Part shown: one piece after another, positions 483-29,253 of the stretch | Layout of the letters: every line of letters begins with the position of its first letter | Position numbering within the stretch: the first letter of the stretch is position 1 | IMG/VR virus record: IMGVR_UViG_3300028888_000123 | Source: a virus | Strand: one strand, 5' to 3' | DNA length: 64,000 bases | Program-made: the position numbers and the translations under genes | Notes under the pieces: model-generated | The model's database searches: none | Seen by the model: the letters and a program-made list of their open reading frames with translations, nothing else | Told to the model about the DNA's origin: nothing

Positions 483-487
483 GATGT

Positions 488-559
488 GGGAGAGTAGCTC
501 ACGGCTAGAGTGCTAGCTAGCGAAGGCTAGAGATGTAGGTTCGACTCCTACCTCTCCCA
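488..559 (+). tRNA. tRNA with a non-canonical 8-nt anticodon loop (TAGCGAAG); isotype undetermined.
   Basis: Acceptor GGGAGAG/CTCTCCC, D-stem GCTC/GAGT, T-arm GTAGG-TTCGACT-CCTAC. The anticodon stem CTAGC/GCTAG encloses 8 nt. Confidence 0.55.
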
Positions 560-638
560 ACAATGGTGACGGGACTAGCCAGAAGAAGTCCTATATAACA
601 AGGGGTACTTTGTAATAGCTGCTATCCCTTGTCTATAT

Positions 639-967: not shown

Positions 968-993
968 GGTTTTAGTTGAAAAATATAGAAAAG

Positions 994-3177
994 ATGAGAA
1001 CATTATTGTTATTTAGATGAGCACCTTGATGTGGAAAGTCTACCTTCATAAAGGAGAATTGACTAGAACCATACACTTTATGTGCAGATACTTTTAGAAT
1101 GCTGTATTCTTCTCCTACATTATATGTAAATGGAGAGGTACATATTCCACAGAATGTGAATGCAGTAGCTTGGGATAATCTATTCTCTACCCTAGAATAT
1201 AGAATGCAGAATGGAGAGTTCACAGTTATCGATGCTACAAACTCTAAAACTGTGGAGATGAATAAATATAAGAAACTAGCTGATGAATATAGATATAGAC
1301 TTTATATTGTTGATATGACAGACATCCCTATCGATGAAGTAAAGAGAAGAAATAAACTTAGACCAGAATGGAAATGGGTACCAGAAGAAGCTATAGATAA
1401 TATGTATGCTAGATTCACAACGCAAAAAGTTCCTAGCTGAATTAAGGTTATTAAACCAGAAGAGGTGGTTGACTTATTAAGATGGAGAGCTGTAGAAATT
1501 CCTGATACATATAAAGAGGTAGTACACATAGGAGATATTCATTGATGTTATGAAACATTAATGTCTGCTCTACCTAATGGTATTGAAGAAGATAAGTTCT
1601 ACATATTCCTATGAGATTACTACGAAAGAGGGCCAGAGAATGTAAAATGCCTAGACTTTATGGAAAGCATAATTGATTTACCTAATGTTGTATGTTTGGA
1701 GTGAAATCACGAAACTCATTTATGGACTTATGGTATAGGAAAAATCCCTAGAAGTAAACACTTTATGGGGTATACAGTGAATGAATTAATCGAATGAGGA
1801 TGGGATGCTAAAAGAATGAGAATCTTTATGAAGAAACTTTTGCAGTGCTACTACTATACCTTCAAAGGTAAAACTGTTCTATGTACTCACTGAGGAATAA
1901 GTAATTCTAATTTCGATGAACTATTCCCATTAGGATTAACTTGTATCGCTACAATGGATTTAATTCATTGAGTGGGTAGCTATAATGATACAGCTGAATG
2001 TGATACTAACTTTGCTAAAGGAAACATAATTCAGATACACTGACACAGGAATATAGAAGATAAACAAATAGAATGAATTGCTAACCTAGAATGATGAGTT
2101 GAATGGTGAAAGGAATTGAGAGTTGCTGTGTTGGGTGATGAATTAGAAGTAGTTAAGTATCCATACAAAGATAGAATACCTTCTAAGGAAGAATTCTTCT
2201 GAATAAAACAGGATGTAACCGTTAAACAATTCATTGAAAGCTTGAGAAAGAATAGATATATCAACGAAAAAAATGTGCAGTGAAACATAAGTAGCTTTAA
2301 CTTTACTAGATGAGCATTTAGTAGAAGTCACTGGGATAGAGAAACAGTTAAAGCAAGGGGGCTATTTATAAACACTAACACATATAAAATAGTTGCTAGA
2401 GCCTACAATAAGTTCTTTAATATAGACGAACAAAAGAGTACAATGTTATTTAGTATAGGACAAAATGCTCACTTCCCTATCGTTGGGTACAAGAAATATA
2501 ACGGATATCTATGAATAATAGGATACGATGAAGAAAGCGATGAGTTAGTATTCACAAGTAAATCTGAAGTGGGTTGACCTCACGCTCAACGACTTAAAGA
2601 AATAGTTATAGAGAAAGGTATCAACTTAGAAAAAGTAAAAGACTATTTAAAGGAGAACCTTTGCTCGTTAGTCTTTGAGGTTATAGACCCTGTAAATGAT
2701 GCACATATTATTAAGTATACTGAAAGAGATGTTATATTGTTAGACTGTGTAAAGAATACTATCAACTTTGAGAAACTAGACTACGATAGTTTATTAAAGC
2801 TATGAGAACTACTTTGATTCACAGTAAAAGAAAAGTTAGTAGAGTTAAAAGATATGGTGGAGTTGAGAGAATGTATTGACGAATTACTAAATCCTAATTC
2901 AGAGTACAATACTTGAACTCCTATTGAATGAATGGTGTTTGTTGACAAAGATGACTTTATGTTTAAACAGAAGTGAGAGTATTATCAGCAATGGAAGAAA
3001 CTTAGAGCTTTGATTTGAGTAGTAGCAAGATGACAAAACTTTGTTCATACTTGAATGTTAACAAACCCAGAGATGAATGAGTTCTATTGATGGTTAAAGG
3101 AACAGACTTTAACTTGAGAAGAAAACATTATAGAGCTTAGAGATAAGTTCTATGCTAACAAAGCTATGATTAGCTAA
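994..3177 (+). CDS. pnkp: Trifunctional RNA repair enzyme with kinase, phosphatase and ligase domains. The N-terminal domain is a P-loop polynucleotide kinase, the central domain a lambda-phosphatase-type metallophosphoesterase, and the C-terminal domain an Rnl-type RNA ligase. About 727 aa with TGA read as Gly.
   Basis: P-loop FRGAPGCGKST spans two TGA codons (1018-1050). GDIHGCY (lambda PPase GDLHGCY) and LEGNHE span further TGA codons. Ligase motifs KxNG (VGYKKYNGY), FEVID, EGMVFVD and FKQKG are present. Only TGA interrupts the frame, up to TAA at 3175. Confidence 0.75.
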
Positions 3178-3306
3178 CATAGGGAGTCGTCCACCTCGGC
3201 ACGGACGGATAATGTGGGGTATCACACTGTAAATATTAGCTTTAGTATTAGTAATGCGAAGTACAAACATTATGAGTAGTAAGGTTAATATGATATATCT
3301 CCCTTC

Positions 3307-3377
3307 GGCAGGGTAGCTCAGGGGCAGAGCAATGCCGTTTAGGGCATATGTCGTGGGTTCGAGTCCCACCCTTGTCG
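3307..3377 (+). tRNA. tRNA with a 6-nt anticodon loop (GTTTAG) between a perfect 5-bp stem ATGCC/GGCAT. The central TTT/TTA suggests a Lys(UUU) derivative or UUA; isotype undetermined.
   Basis: Acceptor GGCAGGG/CCTTGTC (two GU pairs), TA, D-arm GCTC-AGGGGCA-GAGC, T-arm GTGGG-TTCGAGT-CCCAC. Confidence 0.5.
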
Positions 3378-3384
3378 AGGGGAG

Positions 3385-11951: not shown

Positions 11952-12056
11952 ACGTAATCGACTATACCTCTTTATAAAAAAAAGACTTGAAATTTATTTT
12001 GATAACATTATGAAATAATTGTTGTAATTATTTAGCCAACAAAAACAAAAACAAAA

Positions 12057-12320
12057 ATGAGAGTTTACCCCAGTATTCTCCTACAGGTAGGAGACTTGGT
12101 AGAGAGCCCTAACGAGCAAATGTTATGGTACGTAGCAGATATCATAGAGTGAATACCTATGTTATGTGATGGTACCAATATATTTTGTCCTCGTTGGGGC
12201 TTTTATTTTCAAACAGATTATTGAAGTTTTATCCCTATAGTGGATGATTCTTCAGCTTCAAAAATCAATGAAGCTTATTTGAATTTTGACTACGAAAGTA
12301 CCTGGGGTTTCTCTGAATAA
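12057..12320 (+). CDS. Hypothetical protein (87 aa).
   Basis: AAACAAAAATG leader; open frame. Confidence 0.4.
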
Positions 12321-26469: not shown

Positions 26470-26845
26470 TAAAAATGGCTTCTTTCGTCAGAGAATAGCT
26501 CTTTGTCTTCATATTTTTTCTTTACTATTCCTGGCTGGTAGAAAGCTCATCTAGGCAAGGAGAGAATAGCATATAATTCTTCTCTCACTACATCGCTTAA
26601 CACAGGCTCCCATAATTTTACCATATCTCTTAATTGCTCGTGTGGGCTTTGTGATTGCCCATAAAATCTATTGAGAGCTTGGTGCTTTCTGTCTGCGATT
26701 AACACTTTATTAATAGCCTCGTTAGTGTTGTATTGTAATCTATTACAACGTCAAACTATATGGTGCTCTGATTTAGCATCAGCTGGAATACATTTGTTAA
26801 GATGGTATTCTTCTCAATTAATGGTTATCCTGTGTGGTTTGCTCA
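26470..26845 (-). CDS. Hypothetical protein (about 125 aa).
   Basis: ATG at 26843-26845. Confidence 0.35.
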
Positions 26846-27324
26846 TCTTCTTTAATATTTTCTAAATTTTCGTCTTTTTTAGGTAACTTCTGTTTAAATA
26901 AGTTAGCTATAAATTCTATAAGCAAAGAGAAGGCGTCAATTTCTGATAGGTGAGAACCTGTATTTATTGAATATATGTGTCAGATAATAGAGTATCACTC
27001 TGTTATGATTAATATACTCATTACACTTGTCACTAACATAGATATATCTTCTGCGCCAACCCCCTTTAGAACGAAGATAAAAACTAAAGGAAGAATTAAC
27101 TTAGAGAATTTCTTAAAGATTCATCTCCAAGCATTTGTTGAAGTTACACTTTGTTTATCTTCGAAATAAGCATCAGCTATTCAGAAGACAAAATCTAAGA
27201 AGAGAAGTCCTGCAAAGATAGCATAGACTTCTCCACTTAATTGTAGATATTCTAGTACAGAAGCAAGTGTTATCCCCCCTGCCACACTAGCAACGGCACC
27301 AGCTGCACTGAATTCTCAAGTCAT
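26810..27324 (-). CDS. Holin-like multi-TM membrane protein (about 158 aa).
   Basis: Three predicted TM segments (AAGAVASVAGGITLASVL; IFAGLLFLDFVFGIA; LILPLVFIFVL). It sits immediately upstream of the peptidase gene. The 3' end overlaps the next gene and is approximate. Confidence 0.4.
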
Positions 27325-27346
27325 TATTTATTATTTAAAATTAAAT

Positions 27347-28273
27347 TTATAACGGTAGCTCTTGATTAATCTCTGGATATAACTTTCTAGCTACTTGAGA
27401 GAAATTAACTATAGCTTGTTGCATTTCTTTAGGCTCATTATTATATTGCTTCTTTAATACTTCAATAACTACCTTCATAACATTCTTTCTCTTTAAATAT
27501 TCTGGGCTTTTAGCAGCATCTTCTTTAATGTATAATACCCAATATCTATAGTTAAATCTACTTCCAAAATCTTTCATAGTTTTGAAAGAAATGTAGAATC
27601 TAGATTTAAGTTTTTTACCATCGTTAGCACTCCAGCTATTAACAAACCAGAATCAGTTAGCGTCCCAACCGACAAGTGCTATACAATGTCATCCCGTAGG
27701 AGTTGTAGGAACAGTCTTAACTTCTCATTTAGTCATCTCATTCCAAGTAGTTTTATCTCATCTTACACACCATACGATAGGGCAACCTTGATAAAGATAT
27801 CTCTTCATTAAATCAATAGCTTTATCTGTCTCATCCCACGCTCAAGTTGCATAAGCATCGAATCTAGCTAGCTGTCAATTTTCTTCTATAAGAATTCACT
27901 CCTTTAATGCAGTTGCTACAGCTTTCTCTACAAAATCTCAACCATCATATTTAGTTGTTGAATGTCCCATCTTACTCCATAGGTCTTTCCATTGTGGAGT
28001 AATTATATTCCTATCTGTCGGCTCTACTCAATTCTTTTTTACCTGTAAGATTTGTACTCAATGTGTAGTTCACATAGCAGTGCAGCTTCAAAGAGCTCAT
28101 TGATTAGAGGTTTTATAAATCCATTTTCATAGAGAGAAAAACTCTGGGAGCTTGACATTATAATCAACTTTAATCGCTTCTGTCGCTTCGAAGTCTGTAG
28201 CTTCGGCCATATCTTCTGGAAGGGTTAGAGCTCATTCAAAAATCTTTATCTCTTCTTCTGTTAAATTTTCCAT
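27347..28273 (-). CDS. Papain-like (C1 family) cysteine peptidase, putative endolysin (about 308 aa).
   Basis: GALGSCTAMG (catalytic Cys context) and GGHCIALVGWDANGFWFVNSWS (GGHAV...VGY...W.VKNSWG signature). ORF track 27347..27577 is the C-terminal piece. Confidence 0.5.
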
Positions 28274-28299
28274 AATATATAAATTAAGGAATAAATTTT

Positions 28300-28366
28300 C
28301 TTGGATGGGTAATTGTCCCACCCAAGAAATTAATGTGTCTTATTTTCATTTTGGTAACGGTACTAC
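28300..28366 (-). promoter_or_regulatory. Conserved stem-loop element (copy a).
   Basis: CTTGGATGGGTAATTGTCCCACCCAAG hairpin plus AAATTAATGTGTCTTATTTTCATTTTGGTAACGGTACTA. About 60 of 67 nt identical to 49971-50037. Confidence 0.55.
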
Positions 28367-28384: not shown

Positions 28385-28600
28385 TTATTGGGTAATTTTT
28401 TGTAAAGTTTCTTCATATGAAATATGTTTCCCATTCCAAATAATTATTGGTAGCATAGTTTCTCCTTCAATATCTTCTGGGTTAGCTTCATTAATGTTTA
28501 CTTCCTCAAATGTAAGTCCATTATTTTCAGCATAACTCTTTAATAAAGGAGCTATCATATGGCAACGGGAACAGAAGTCCCCCGAAATAAGTCTAATCAT
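28385..28600 (-). CDS. Glutaredoxin/NrdH-like thioredoxin-fold protein (71 aa).
   Basis: ORF track entry; CSRC (CxxC) motif near the N-terminus; size typical of the family. Confidence 0.5.
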   Translation of the reverse strand: MIRLISGDFCSRCHMIAPLLKSYAENNGLTFEEVNINEANPEDIEGETMLPIIIWNGKHISYEETLQKITQ

Positions 28601-29088
28601 TTTTAGTTCAAAATTTTCTGATAAAATCTGAATTGTCTATTTTTGACTGTTCAAAGACAGTTCTCCCGTAAAATTCGCTCTTCTTACCTTCGTTATATCA
28701 ACTCACTGGTCTAATGTATCACCAATATGTTACCGATAAAGCATTTAACTTTATCTTCTATATGTTACCATATAGTTCGGACTATATCTTCAAATAACTT
28801 TCGTTAAGTGTTGGGCACTCGTGTTGCTTTCATTACTGGTCTAGTAGTATAGCATTAGTCTCTGCACGTTCTCCCTATCCCTAAGGAGCTTCGCTCAGTA
28901 TTGTCCTTATAGGAGTTCCACTGAATTCACCCAATGTTTAAAGAGAGACATAATACTTAGTCTATCACTCTCGTATACACTTCACAAGGCACTCTTTTAT
29001 AAATCTTTCAATCACTTCACATAACTTCAACTGTCTCAATGGTTTTTGGCATAATGGTAATTATAGTAAAATATAAAAAACATATAAT
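28601..29088. ncRNA. 480-nt non-coding island: candidate structured RNA or replication origin with iteron-like repeats.
   Basis: Stops in all six frames even with TGA as Gly. Internal repeats TATGTTACC(G/A)ATA x2 and CTGGTCTA(A/G)T x2. Everything around it is densely coding. Confidence 0.35.
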
Positions 29089-29111
29089 CCCCTAAGGCAA
29101 AGCCCTAGGGG
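29089..29111. terminator. Hairpin CCCCTAAGG-CAAAG-CCCTAGGGG.
   Basis: 9-bp imperfect GC-rich stem; similar to the CCCTAG hairpin at 38551. Confidence 0.45.
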
Positions 29112-29112
29112 A

Positions 29113-29253
29113 AATGAATTAAAGATAATTTAATATTGCCACTAAAGCTATAATGCTTATAGCAACAATCACTCTAAATAGAAATAAATCTATCTTAATG
29201 ATTCCTATCACAAATAGGATTAAGAATATAAGAAGGAGAAATAATTTTAGCAT
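29113..29253 (-). CDS. Small hydrophobic membrane protein (about 46 aa).
   Basis: MLKLFLLLIFLILFVIGIIKIDLFLFRVIVAISIIALVAILNYL. Confidence 0.3.

What the first reader, a model, noticed from the sequence alone, without database searches (positions are those of the whole stretch)
28601..29088. 480-nt non-coding island inside the densely packed late arm
Stops are frequent in all six frames even under table 25, whereas every neighbouring interval is coding. The island carries internal direct repeats (TATGTTACCGATAAAG and TATGTTACCATATAG; CACTGGTCTAATGTATCAC and TACTGGTCTAGTAGTATAGC). It is bounded by the conserved stem-loop element on one side and a CCCCTAAGG...CCTTAGGGG hairpin on the other. Candidates are a structured ncRNA, an ORF-less self-splicing intron, or an origin or packaging region with iterons.
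Basis: seen in the sequence. Interest (0 to 1): 0.6.

Follow-up and report, generated by a model that had tools for sequence, protein, structure and literature searches.

The report
Self-splicing intron splitting a phage gene

Summary
The island is real but only half non-coding. On the minus strand it holds 36 nt of intergenic DNA, an 89-nt exon 1 (29052-28964), a 241-nt ORF-less group I intron (28963-28723) and most of exon 2 (28722-28593). Rfam scores the ribozyme at 81 bits (gathering score 50). An explicit P3-P9 structure is 87% paired across 13 related introns, against 31-43% in slid controls.

Removing the intron joins AGAGUGAU|GUGAUAC and gives a 72-aa protein that aligns without gaps to intron-less homologues (…TRVMGYIRPV…). 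The 5' exon ends in a U.G wobble, the intron ends in G, and a 7-bp P10 fits exon 2.

The product is the glycyl-radical tail of anaerobic ribonucleotide reductase NrdD (Pfam positions 532-562 of 562). The radical glycine is encoded by TGA. In bacteria, including code-25 Patescibacteria, the same small protein is encoded separately after an NrdD that lacks this tail.

The intron is 98-100% identical in four carriers whose exons are only 71-83% identical, so it spread recently.

Verdict: new member of a known kind, with an interesting host gene.

The parts
29088..29112 (-). Terminator-like hairpin that ends the upstream unit (the 44-aa hydrophobic ORF 29119-29253). It marks the upstream edge of the two-gene cassette.
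   Evidence: 11-bp stem with 7 G-C pairs plus a T-run; inverted repeat I15. Function is inferred.
28964..29052 (-). Exon 1 of the nrdD-tail gene: ATG at 29052-29050, encoding MPKTIETVEVMGSDGKIYKRVPCEVYTRV plus the first two bases (AU) of the Met30 codon. The last base, U28964, is the 5' splice site.
   Evidence: Aligns to the N-terminal half of the intron-less genes L001/L004/L005/L006. The family profile hits ORF fragment 28960-29091 at E = 1.2e-11.
28723..28963 (-). Group I intron, 241 nt, with no ORF and no P2. Unspliced read-through stops at TAA 28959-28957. The terminal G (omega-G) is 28723.
   Evidence: Rfam RF00028, 81.4 bits, E = 3.8e-19. The Rfam coordinates 29010-28758 are shifted because the model's P1/P2 part was forced onto exon 1. 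The boundaries come from the homologue alignment. The same 241-nt element is in L010, L034 and L035.
28941..28956 (-). Internal guide sequence GUAUUAU|GUCUCUCUU. Bases 28949-28941 pair with the last 9 nt of exon 1 (P1), with U28964.G28949 at the splice site. Bases 28956-28950 pair with the first 7 nt of exon 2 (P10).
   Evidence: Read directly from the sequence. P1 has 8 pairs and one U.U mismatch. P10 has 7 of 7 pairs. The exon -9 change G>A in L010/L034 turns G.U into A-U.
28779..28934 (-). Catalytic core: P3 (28934-28928 with 28817-28811), P4 (28924-28919 with 28900-28895), P5 (28914-28911 with 28907-28904), P6/P6a (28894-28866), P7 (28862-28856 with 28784-28779, bulged A28861; the guanosine site), P7.1 insert (28854-28825), P8 (28806-28795) and J8/7.
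   Evidence: Pair counts on alignment A2: P3 94.5%, P4 100%, P5 88-100%, P6 100%, P7 100% and P7.1 96% paired, with compensatory changes in P3, P4, P5, P6 and P7.1.
28724..28775 (-). 3' peripheral domain: P9 (28775-28758, 7 bp with a GUAA loop), P9.1 (28755-28735, 7 bp) and the tail GGUAACAUAUU before omega-G. A possible 2-bp P9.0 joins 28778-28777 with 28725-28724.
   Evidence: P9 is 100% paired but invariant. Its loop changes GUAA to GCAA in L010, still a GNRA loop. The outer P9.1 pairs covary; the inner ones are misaligned. The tail motif UAACA..AUU is conserved across the family.
28593..28722 (-). Exon 2: G (third base of Met30), then TGA (28721-28719, the radical Gly31), then YIRPVSGYNEGKKSEFYGRTVFEQSKIDNSDFIRKFGTKND and stop TAG at 28595-28593. 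It overlaps the next gene's ATG by 8 nt.
   Evidence: Gapless alignment to intron-less homologues. Profile hit on fragment 28596-28757 at E = 1.9e-24. Pfam NRDD 28.3 bits (cut-off 26.2), profile positions 532-562 of 562.
28385..28600 (-). Thioredoxin-like gene (71 aa, CSRC motif). It is the downstream partner in the cassette and is not the gene that is split.
   Evidence: ORF from the ORF listing. Weak Pfam Thioredoxin match, E = 0.007, below the cut-off. It follows the nrdD-tail gene in all related loci.
28297..28329 (-). Terminator-like hairpin that closes the two-gene cassette.
   Evidence: 13-bp stem plus a T-run. Together with 29112-29088 it is the strongest such site on this strand in 20 kb. 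Function is inferred.

Best explanation
The region is a split protein-coding gene on the minus strand. A 241-nt ORF-less group I intron (28963-28723) interrupts a 72-codon gene between the second and third base of the Met30 codon, one base before the TGA codon for the radical glycine (motif R-V-M-G-Y).

Mechanism (inferred from the sequence and from established group I chemistry):
1. The pre-mRNA folds into P3-P9.
2. The guide sequence pairs with the end of exon 1 to form P1, with a U.G wobble at the cleavage site.
3. Free guanosine bound in P7 attacks after U28964.
4. The terminal G28723 then occupies the same site.
5. P10 (7 bp) aligns exon 2, and the exons are ligated to ...AGA GUG AUG UGA UAC....

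Without splicing, translation stops two codons into the intron and gives a 31-aa peptide with no radical motif.

The spliced mRNA encodes a stand-alone copy of the C-terminal glycyl-radical segment of anaerobic (class III) ribonucleotide reductase. In bacteria, including the likely code-25 host lineage, this segment is a separate small gene following an NrdD that lacks it. I infer that the phage supplies this oxygen-sensitive, consumable piece together with a thioredoxin-like protein.

The intron itself is a selfish mobile element that spread recently among related phages. It probably moved by DNA-level homing or recombination, helped by endonucleases encoded elsewhere; a free-standing HNH gene sits beside it in one relative.
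For: Shown:
- Rfam RF00028 matches at 81.4 bits against a gathering score of 50, E = 3.8e-19, and it is the only non-tRNA hit in 64 kb.
- The explicit structure is 86.7% paired across 13 related introns, against 31-43% with slid partners. 26 pairs show double-sided changes and 0 of 500 shuffles reach the observed score.
- Excising 28963-28723 gives an ORF that aligns without gaps to four intron-less genes. L005/L006 have the identical junction GTGAT.GTGATAC.
- The family profile finds exactly the two exon fragments, in different frames, and nothing else in the window.
- The 5' exon ends in U opposite G, the intron ends in G, and P10 is 7 of 7 paired.
- Pfam NRDD is above its cut-off at the extreme C-terminus. 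The only PDB profile hits are the Thermotoga NrdD C-terminus, with RIVGY aligned to RVMGY.
- The same 241-nt intron sits at the same site in L010, L034 and L035. Intron identity is 98.3-100% against exon identity of 71-83% (Fisher p from 7e-9 to 1e-19). All carriers keep intact, in-frame exons.
- Against intron-less L001/L004, identity around the insertion site is only 58-73%, next to flanks that are 97-100% identical.
- Bacteria have a split NrdD: large ORF profile 1-531/534, small ORF 531-562, then a radical-SAM activase.
Against: - There is no transcript or biochemical evidence of splicing.
- P1 contains one U.U mismatch.
- The P7.1/P7.2 region forms one extended hairpin rather than the two helices typical of subgroup IA2.
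- The 5' part of the Rfam alignment was forced onto exon sequence.
- P6a and P9.1 are poorly supported in the MAFFT alignment because of indels.
- The comparison set was gathered with a 24-mer from J8/7-P7'-P9, so invariance there follows from how the set was built. The structure was also derived from the window sequence, which favours it over the slid controls.
- No endonuclease is encoded in or next to the intron in this window, so the route of mobility is unproven.
- The proposed role of the 72-aa product rests on homology and synteny only. No full-length or large NrdD was found in the 64-kb window.
Confidence: 0.9

Rival explanations
1. Dead intron or pseudogene: the ribozyme no longer splices, and the nrdD-tail gene is an inactivated relic.
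For: There is no experimental evidence of splicing. P1 has an internal mismatch, and the phage lacks the large NrdD subunit in this window.
Against: All core helices and the U.G, omega-G and P10 features are intact. Four carriers with exons diverged to 71-83% all keep open, in-frame exons and the invariant RVMGYIRP motif, so the exons are under purifying selection. That selection requires splicing. The few intron substitutions preserve structure: U.G to U-A in P6a, and the GUAA loop to GCAA.
Confidence: 0.05
2. Regulatory ribozyme: splicing is conditional, for example on timing, a metabolite or translation, and gates production of the radical subunit and of the downstream thioredoxin-like gene, which may be translationally coupled through the 8-nt overlap.
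For: An in-frame stop lies two codons after the 5' splice site. The downstream gene's ATG overlaps the exon 2 stop. The 3' tail nearly duplicates P9 and could form an alternative pairing that sequesters omega-G (read from the sequence).
Against: No aptamer or other Rfam family is present. Intron-less relatives keep the same gene arrangement without the intron, so it is dispensable. The repeat is not above chance.
Confidence: 0.04
3. Replication origin or packaging site with iterons, or a different structured non-coding RNA.
For: Short direct repeats are present and the region is flanked by hairpins.
Against: The repeats are no better than in 46 of 200 shuffles and are explained as intron helices and coding sequence. 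The cumulative GC skew turns at about 20 kb where the coding strand switches, and there is no inflection at 28.6-29.1 kb. The region is fully accounted for by two exons and a group I intron.
Confidence: 0.01

Closest known systems
Phage T4 nrdD (sunY) group I intron carrying I-TevII
   Same: [quoted passage not shown] RNR genes, and nrdD in particular, are the phage genes most often split by introns (PMC3653736).
   Different: The T4 intron is 1033 nt, encodes a GIY-YIG endonuclease and sits near codon 170-180 of a 605-codon gene, about 400 codons before Gly580. Here the intron is 241 nt with no ORF, lies one base before the radical-glycine codon, and the host gene is only the 72-codon tail.
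Introns of Gram-positive phages: Bacillus SPO1-like (Bastille and relatives), Staphylococcus Twort/K-like, Clostridium perfringens phages
   Same: These are the best nucleotide matches among sequenced phages, about 77-88% identity over P3'-P8-J8/7-P7'-P9. Like them, this intron has an extra element between P7 and P3', a subgroup IA feature.
   Different: Only 20-31% of the intron aligns. The host genes and insertion sites differ. This intron has no P2, and it has a single P7.1 hairpin rather than separate P7.1 and P7.2.
LAGLIDADG-carrying relatives in uncultivated phage contigs (L012-L031)
   Same: They share the same core, an exact 24-mer and a conserved 3' tail. These are the sequences that support the covariation test.
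   Different: They interrupt other genes, including a uracil-DNA glycosylase family gene and a ThiF family gene, and they encode LAGLIDADG endonucleases. The window intron is ORF-less.
Collaborative homing: an ORF-less intron plus a free-standing endonuclease, as in cyanophage S-PM2 psbA with F-CphI
   Same: An ORF-less intron sits in a conserved motif. In relative L010 a free-standing HNH endonuclease gene lies directly downstream of the intron-bearing gene. The concept is described in PMC3984707.
   Different: The endonuclease is absent from this window. Homologous HNH genes also accompany intron-less alleles (L036, L037). Its cleavage site is unknown.
GrcA/YfiD, the autonomous glycyl-radical 'spare part' for pyruvate formate-lyase
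   Same: It is a small stand-alone protein that carries only the glycyl-radical segment of a large radical enzyme.
   Different: The protein here is NrdD-type, not PFL-type. In bacteria it appears to be the enzyme's only radical segment rather than a back-up. A 2026 review states that spare-part proteins are known only for formate lyases (PMC13450708).

Membership tests
Group I intron (Rfam RF00028) | Covariance-model score above the curated gathering score | tested here: met
   81.4 bits against 50, E = 3.8e-19, full-length model.
Group I intron (Rfam RF00028) | Conserved core helices P3-P9, including the P3/P7 pseudoknot, supported by covariation | tested here: met
   86.7% of cells are paired against 31-43% in slid controls, and 26 pairs show double-sided changes. 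P3, P4, P6 and P7 are 94-100% paired. P6a and P9.1 are inconclusive because of indels.
Group I intron (Rfam RF00028) | 5' splice site after a U that forms a U.G wobble in P1 with an internal guide sequence | tested here: met
   U28964.G28949 plus seven further pairs, with one U.U mismatch. The exon -9 substitution in L010/L034 keeps the pairing.
Group I intron (Rfam RF00028) | Terminal guanosine (omega-G) and P10 pairing with the 3' exon | tested here: met
   The intron ends ...UAUUG at 28723. GUAUUAU (28956-28950) pairs 7 of 7 with GUGAUAC (28722-28716).
Group I intron (Rfam RF00028) | Excision restores an uninterrupted, conserved reading frame | tested here: met
   Gapless alignment of the 72-aa product to intron-less homologues. 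Exon fragments are detected independently.
Group I intron (Rfam RF00028) | Guanosine-dependent self-splicing | not testable with these tools
   Needs in-vitro transcription with GTP labelling, or RNA-seq junction reads.
Subgroup IA2 (phage-type group I introns) | Two extra helices, P7.1 and P7.2, between P7 and P3', together with P2 | tested here: inconclusive
   A 36-nt insert lies at the right place and its closing stem covaries (96% paired), but it folds as one hairpin. P2 is absent, with only 6 nt between P1 and P3. The nearest sequences are introns of SPO1-like, Twort-like and Clostridium phages.
Mobile group I intron with a homing endonuclease | Endonuclease ORF inside the intron | tested here: not met
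   The intron is 241 nt with stops in every frame.
Mobile group I intron with a homing endonuclease | Presence/absence polymorphism at one site, with the intron far more conserved than its exons | tested here: met
   Intron-plus: window, L002, L003, L010, L034, L035. Intron-minus: L001, L004-L009, L036, L037. Intron identity is 98-100% against exon identity of 71-83%, p <= 7e-9. There is a mosaic boundary about 90 nt downstream of the site.
NrdD glycyl-radical domain (host gene product) | Match to the NrdD C-terminus with the R-x-x-G-Y radical motif | tested here: met
   Pfam PF13597 at 28.3 bits, above the 26.2 cut-off, profile positions 532-562 of 562. RVMGYIRP is invariant in 30 family members. 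The only PDB profile hits are the T. maritima NrdD C-terminus, although E is about 0.1.
NrdD glycyl-radical domain (host gene product) | Four-cysteine zinc ribbon preceding the radical loop | tested here: not met
   Only one cysteine (C23) is conserved in the small protein. In the split bacterial enzymes a CxxC remains at the end of the large ORF.
NrdD glycyl-radical domain (host gene product) | Genomic association with the NrdD catalytic subunit and the NrdG activase | tested here: inconclusive
   Met for the bacterial homologues, which follow nrdD-large; in L043/L044 a radical-SAM activase follows. Not met in the phage window, which has no other NrdD-type segment.
Replication origin or packaging site with iterons | Repeats above chance and a compositional-skew inflection | tested here: not met
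   46 of 200 shuffles match the best repeat. The skew turns at about 20 kb.

The most novel reading that the evidence does not exclude
The interrupted gene encodes a trans-acting glycyl-radical subunit of a naturally two-piece class III ribonucleotide reductase. In Absconditabacterales/Patescibacteria MAGs, gut Alphaproteobacteria and Francisellaceae, NrdD ends at Pfam position about 531-534, and the radical loop is a separate protein of about 60-75 aa.

The phage carries only this oxygen-labile, consumable piece plus a thioredoxin-like protein, to sustain or re-arm the host enzyme during infection. That would make it the first 'spare-part'-like radical protein outside the formate lyases. Its production would depend on an intron placed one base before the radical-glycine codon, which is itself a recoded UGA.
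Probability: 0.35. Interest if true: 0.7.

Novelty: new member of a known kind. Interest (0 to 1): 0.45.

Why it matters
For annotation: gene callers miss this gene entirely. Public protein sets hold only intron-less versions, and the neighbouring thioredoxin-like gene is often called too short. The case shows that 'non-coding islands' in recoded phage genomes can be split genes.

For intron biology: it extends group I introns to phages that read TGA as glycine and probably infect Patescibacteria. It also gives a clear natural example of an ORF-less intron that is far better conserved than its exons, sitting beside free-standing HNH genes.

For enzymology: following the host gene led to a widespread arrangement in which the glycyl-radical loop of the anaerobic reductase is a separate small protein. 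If that holds up, it bears on how radical enzymes cope with oxygen damage, and it can be tested directly with recombinant proteins.

Tried and rejected
1. My first idea was that the intron splits the thioredoxin-like gene, joining MPKTIETV to TIQILSEN... with a 5' splice site at 29029 and a 3' splice site at 28637. I rejected it when intron-less relatives showed a separate 72-75-aa gene upstream of the thioredoxin-like gene.
2. The Rfam hit coordinates (29010-28758) are not the intron boundaries. The model's P1/P2 part was aligned to exon 1 with non-canonical pairs, and the 3' 35 nt lie outside the model (one search compared).
3. The search for related loci with the thioredoxin-like protein in viral contigs found nothing.
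4. The exact 19-mer from the intron start found only L011, which is a chance match in unrelated coding sequence.
5. The intron-specific 22-mer has no match in IMG/VR. The metagenome scan gave two further carriers.
6. tblastn of the 72-aa protein against GenBank phages gave only two weak hits.
7. tblastn of T4 NrdD and NrdG against the window found nothing, but this probe is insensitive.
8. A single-sequence PDB search was dominated by spurious designed-repeat 'Cake' proteins. The profile search was cleaner.
9. The whole-region minimum-free-energy fold is uninformative (z = -1.7), as expected for a pseudoknotted ribozyme.
10. A Pfam call on window coordinates failed because the tool translates with table 11.
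11. The similarity between the intron's P7.1 loop and exon 2 is not exon-derived, because related introns in other genes keep a similar GAGACC-type loop.

Full report
**Observation**

The window is a phage-like genome in which TGA is a sense codon. Standard-code ORFs are all short, while recoding TGA restores long ORFs. All 57 predicted genes, on both arms, contain in-frame TGA: 886 TGA codons against 498 GGN. TGA falls on conserved glycines, for example the papain-like NQGxxGSC motif in the neighbouring lysis enzyme.

Within 28601-29088 every frame does have 6-11 stops, and the flanking hairpin at 29088-29112 is real. The quoted direct repeats are at the stated positions, but they are not unusual: 46 of 200 dinucleotide-preserving shuffles contain an equally good direct repeat.

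**What it is**

A scan of the whole window against Rfam gives one non-tRNA match. It is a full-length group I intron on the minus strand at 29010-28758, scoring 81.4 bits against a gathering score of 50, with E = 3.8e-19.

I first assumed the intron split the downstream thioredoxin-like gene. The genomic contexts of that gene's homologues showed otherwise. Some relatives (L002, L003) have the same ~730-nt gap. Others (L001, L004, L005, L006) have a compact 72-75-codon gene there, with a precomputed Pfam NRDD hit.

Translating those genes and the window under table 25 gives the following.
- Intron-less genes read ...CEVWSRVMGYIRPVSGYN....
- The window reads ...CEVYTRV, then two more codons and a stop.
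- About 240 nt later, in another frame, the window reads GYIRPVSGYNEGKK...ND*.

The only junction that restores the conserved Met is exon 1 ...AGAGUGAU (ending at 28964) joined to exon 2 GUGAUAC... (starting at 28722). This leaves a 241-nt intron, 28963-28723, that follows a U and ends in G.

The spliced 219-nt ORF aligns without gaps to the intron-less genes, and L005/L006 carry the identical junction sequence. As an independent check, a profile built from 30 family members hits only two ORF fragments in the window. They are 28960-29091 (E = 1.2e-11) and 28596-28757 (E = 1.9e-24), in different frames on either side of the ribozyme.

The 488-nt 'island' is therefore 36 nt intergenic, 89 nt exon 1, 241 nt intron and 122 nt of exon 2.

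**Ribozyme anatomy**

The following is read from the sequence.
- The guide sequence is GUAUUAU|GUCUCUCUU (28956-28941).
- Its 3' part pairs with the last nine bases of exon 1 (P1: eight pairs and one U.U mismatch), with U28964.G28949 at the cleavage site.
- Its 5' part pairs 7 of 7 with the first seven bases of exon 2 (P10).
- There is no P2.
- P3, P4, P5, P6/P6a, P7 (with a bulged A), a 36-nt P7.1 insert, P8 (GAAA loop), P9 (GUAA loop) and P9.1 follow. A tail, GGUAACAUAUU, precedes the terminal G.

To test this structure I gathered related introns. An exact 24-mer spanning J8/7-P7'-P9 occurs in 21 IMG/VR contigs, and Rfam confirms group I introns there. On a 13-sequence MAFFT alignment, results for my structure were as follows.
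- 86.7% of cells are paired, against 31-43% when partners are slid by 1-3 columns.
- 26 pairs show double-sided changes, and 0 of 500 shuffles reach the observed covariation score.
- P3, P4, P6 and P7 are 94-100% paired, and all four pairs closing P7.1 covary.

Caveats apply. The set was gathered with a P9-region 24-mer, so invariance there is built in. The structure came from the window sequence. P6a and P9.1 fall in indel-rich, misaligned columns.

- CUAUAUGGUAACAUAUAG is the P9 hairpin, and CUUUAUCGGUAACAUAUUG is the 3' strand of P9.1 plus the tail. The UAACA..AUU tail is conserved across the family.
- GUGAUACAUUAGACCAGUG is exon 2 coding sequence (GYIRPV). Its look-alike is the P7.1 loop, which has GAGACC-type counterparts in introns that sit in unrelated genes.

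**Mobility**

The same 241-nt intron lies at the same site in L010, L034 and L035. Intron identity among carriers is 98.3-100%, while 180 nt of flanking exon are 71-83% identical (Fisher p from 7e-9 to 1e-19). The exception is the near-clonal pair of the window and L035. All carriers keep open, in-frame exons, which argues that the gene is functional and hence that the intron splices.

Compared with intron-less L001/L004, the window is 97-100% identical across the end of the gene and the whole thioredoxin-like gene. It is only 58-73% identical in the ~180 nt around the insertion site. That pattern is expected if the intron arrived with a tract of flanking exon.

All carriers begin exon 2 with GTGATAC, the P10 partner. 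Several intron-less alleles use GGG or GGT for the glycine.

The intron has no ORF. In L010 a free-standing HNH endonuclease (PHROG 374, E = 1e-46) lies directly downstream. Homologous HNH genes occupy the same slot next to intron-less alleles in L036 and L037. This resembles the 'collaborative homing' arrangement reviewed in PMC3984707, but the cleavage site is unknown and the window has no such gene.

More distant members of the intron family carry LAGLIDADG ORFs and interrupt a uracil-DNA-glycosylase-family gene and a ThiF-family gene.

**The host gene**

The spliced product matches Pfam NRDD above its cut-off at profile positions 532-562 of 562. Homologues form a family of at least 72 clusters of 56-89-aa proteins with an invariant R-V-M-G-Y-I-R-P core. 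A family profile hits only the Thermotoga NrdD C-terminus in the PDB, with RIVGY aligned to RVMGY, although E is about 0.1. In the window the radical glycine is encoded by TGA (28721-28719).

A scan of bacterial genomes found 31 loci, and in the ten I examined the homologue is also a small separate ORF. It directly follows a large NrdD that stops at profile position 531-534. In Alphaproteobacteria and Francisellaceae it precedes a radical-SAM activase.

A code-25 MAG (L040) has the same arrangement: NrdD-large covers profile 1-531 with an ATP-cone, and a 71-aa ORF covers 531-562. The closest group of hits also includes MAGs labelled Patescibacteria and Absconditabacterales. The L040 large subunit has an MCCR double-cysteine finger loop. 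A preprint (10.1101/2022.04.23.489257) associates that motif with a distinct active-site reduction mechanism, and it cites work showing thioredoxin as reductant.

The phage cassette is bracketed by the two best terminator-like hairpins on that strand. It therefore pairs the radical-bearing piece with a thioredoxin-like protein. That the phage supplies consumable parts to the host's two-piece reductase is my inference.

A 2026 review says spare-part proteins are known only for formate lyases (PMC13450708). I found no description of a split NrdD of this kind in the searched literature, but that search is not exhaustive.

**Comparison with known elements**

Group I introns in phage RNR genes are classic, and nrdD is the RNR gene most often found split in sequenced phages (PMC3653736).

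The T4 nrdD intron differs in several ways. It is 1033 nt, encodes I-TevII, and sits near codon 170-180, about 400 codons from Gly580.

The nearest nucleotide matches among sequenced phages are introns of SPO1-like Bacillus phages, Twort/K-like Staphylococcus phages and Clostridium phages. They match only over the 3' core, at 20-31% coverage and about 77-88% identity. The insert between P7 and P3' points to subgroup IA. Strict IA2 membership is unresolved.

**Verdict**

With high confidence, this is an ORF-less, recently mobile group I intron inside a previously unannotated split gene, so it is a new member of a known kind. Neither an origin or packaging site nor another RNA class is supported.

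The more novel lead is the host gene, a stand-alone NrdD radical piece mirrored by split reductases in bacteria. It deserves separate follow-up.

Noticed in passing
L038-L068 (bacterial genome contigs); e.g. L043:868-3920, L044:1157-3854, L040:704-3198: Naturally split class III ribonucleotide reductase. The large NrdD ORF ends at Pfam NRDD position 531-534 of 562, and a separate 60-75-aa ORF carries the glycyl-radical loop (positions 531-562). In Alphaproteobacteria and Francisellaceae a radical-SAM activase follows. It is seen in Absconditabacterales/Patescibacteria MAGs, gut Alphaproteobacteria and Francisellaceae. I found no description of it in the literature searched.
   Followed up: partly
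L010:2226-3011; L036:3317-4213; L037:2526-3230: Free-standing HNH endonuclease genes (PHROG 374, E = 1e-46; about 43% identical to each other) are inserted between the nrdD-tail gene and the thioredoxin-like gene. They occur next to both intron-containing and intron-less alleles. Alleles with this insertion have a different C-terminus (...AKYMTAKTLEK).
   Followed up: partly
L012-L032 (IMG/VR contigs); e.g. L029 around 1225-1477, L016:9529-9791 and 12053-12292, L024, L026: A family of related group I introns shares an exact 24-mer. Several carry LAGLIDADG endonuclease ORFs and interrupt other genes (uracil-DNA glycosylase family, ThiF family). Some contigs hold two or three introns.
   Followed up: partly
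window 487-561 and 3306-3378 (+): Two tRNA genes have non-standard anticodon loops according to ARAGORN: an 8-nt loop (UAGCGAAG) and a 6-nt loop (GUUUAG, possibly a UUA-type anticodon). Both score as tRNA in Rfam. No UCA-anticodon tRNA was seen in the window.
   Followed up: no
window 976-3177 (+): A 727-aa protein with AAA_33 kinase-like, calcineurin-like phosphoesterase and T4 RNA ligase 1 domains, which looks like an RNA-repair (Pnkp/Rnl-like) enzyme. It lies directly after a cluster of tRNA genes (719-968).
   Followed up: partly
window 26818-28275 (-) compared with L001/L004: The lysis region is mosaic. The holin (Pfam Phage_holin_4_1) is 95-100% identical to L001/L004, but the papain-like lysis enzyme between it and the thioredoxin-like gene is only 30-50% identical, so the gene has been replaced between near-identical flanks.
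   Followed up: partly
window 29119-29253 (-): A 44-aa strongly hydrophobic ORF (MLKLFLLLIFLILFVIGIIKIDLFLF...) lies between the tail-fibre-like gene and the terminator-like hairpin. It has no family match in Pfam or PHROGs.
   Followed up: no
window 28385-28600 (-) and public protein sets: Gene callers often start the thioredoxin-like gene at an internal Met (57 aa, missing the CSRC motif). They never call the split nrdD-tail gene, so public protein collections lack the intron-containing alleles.
   Followed up: partly
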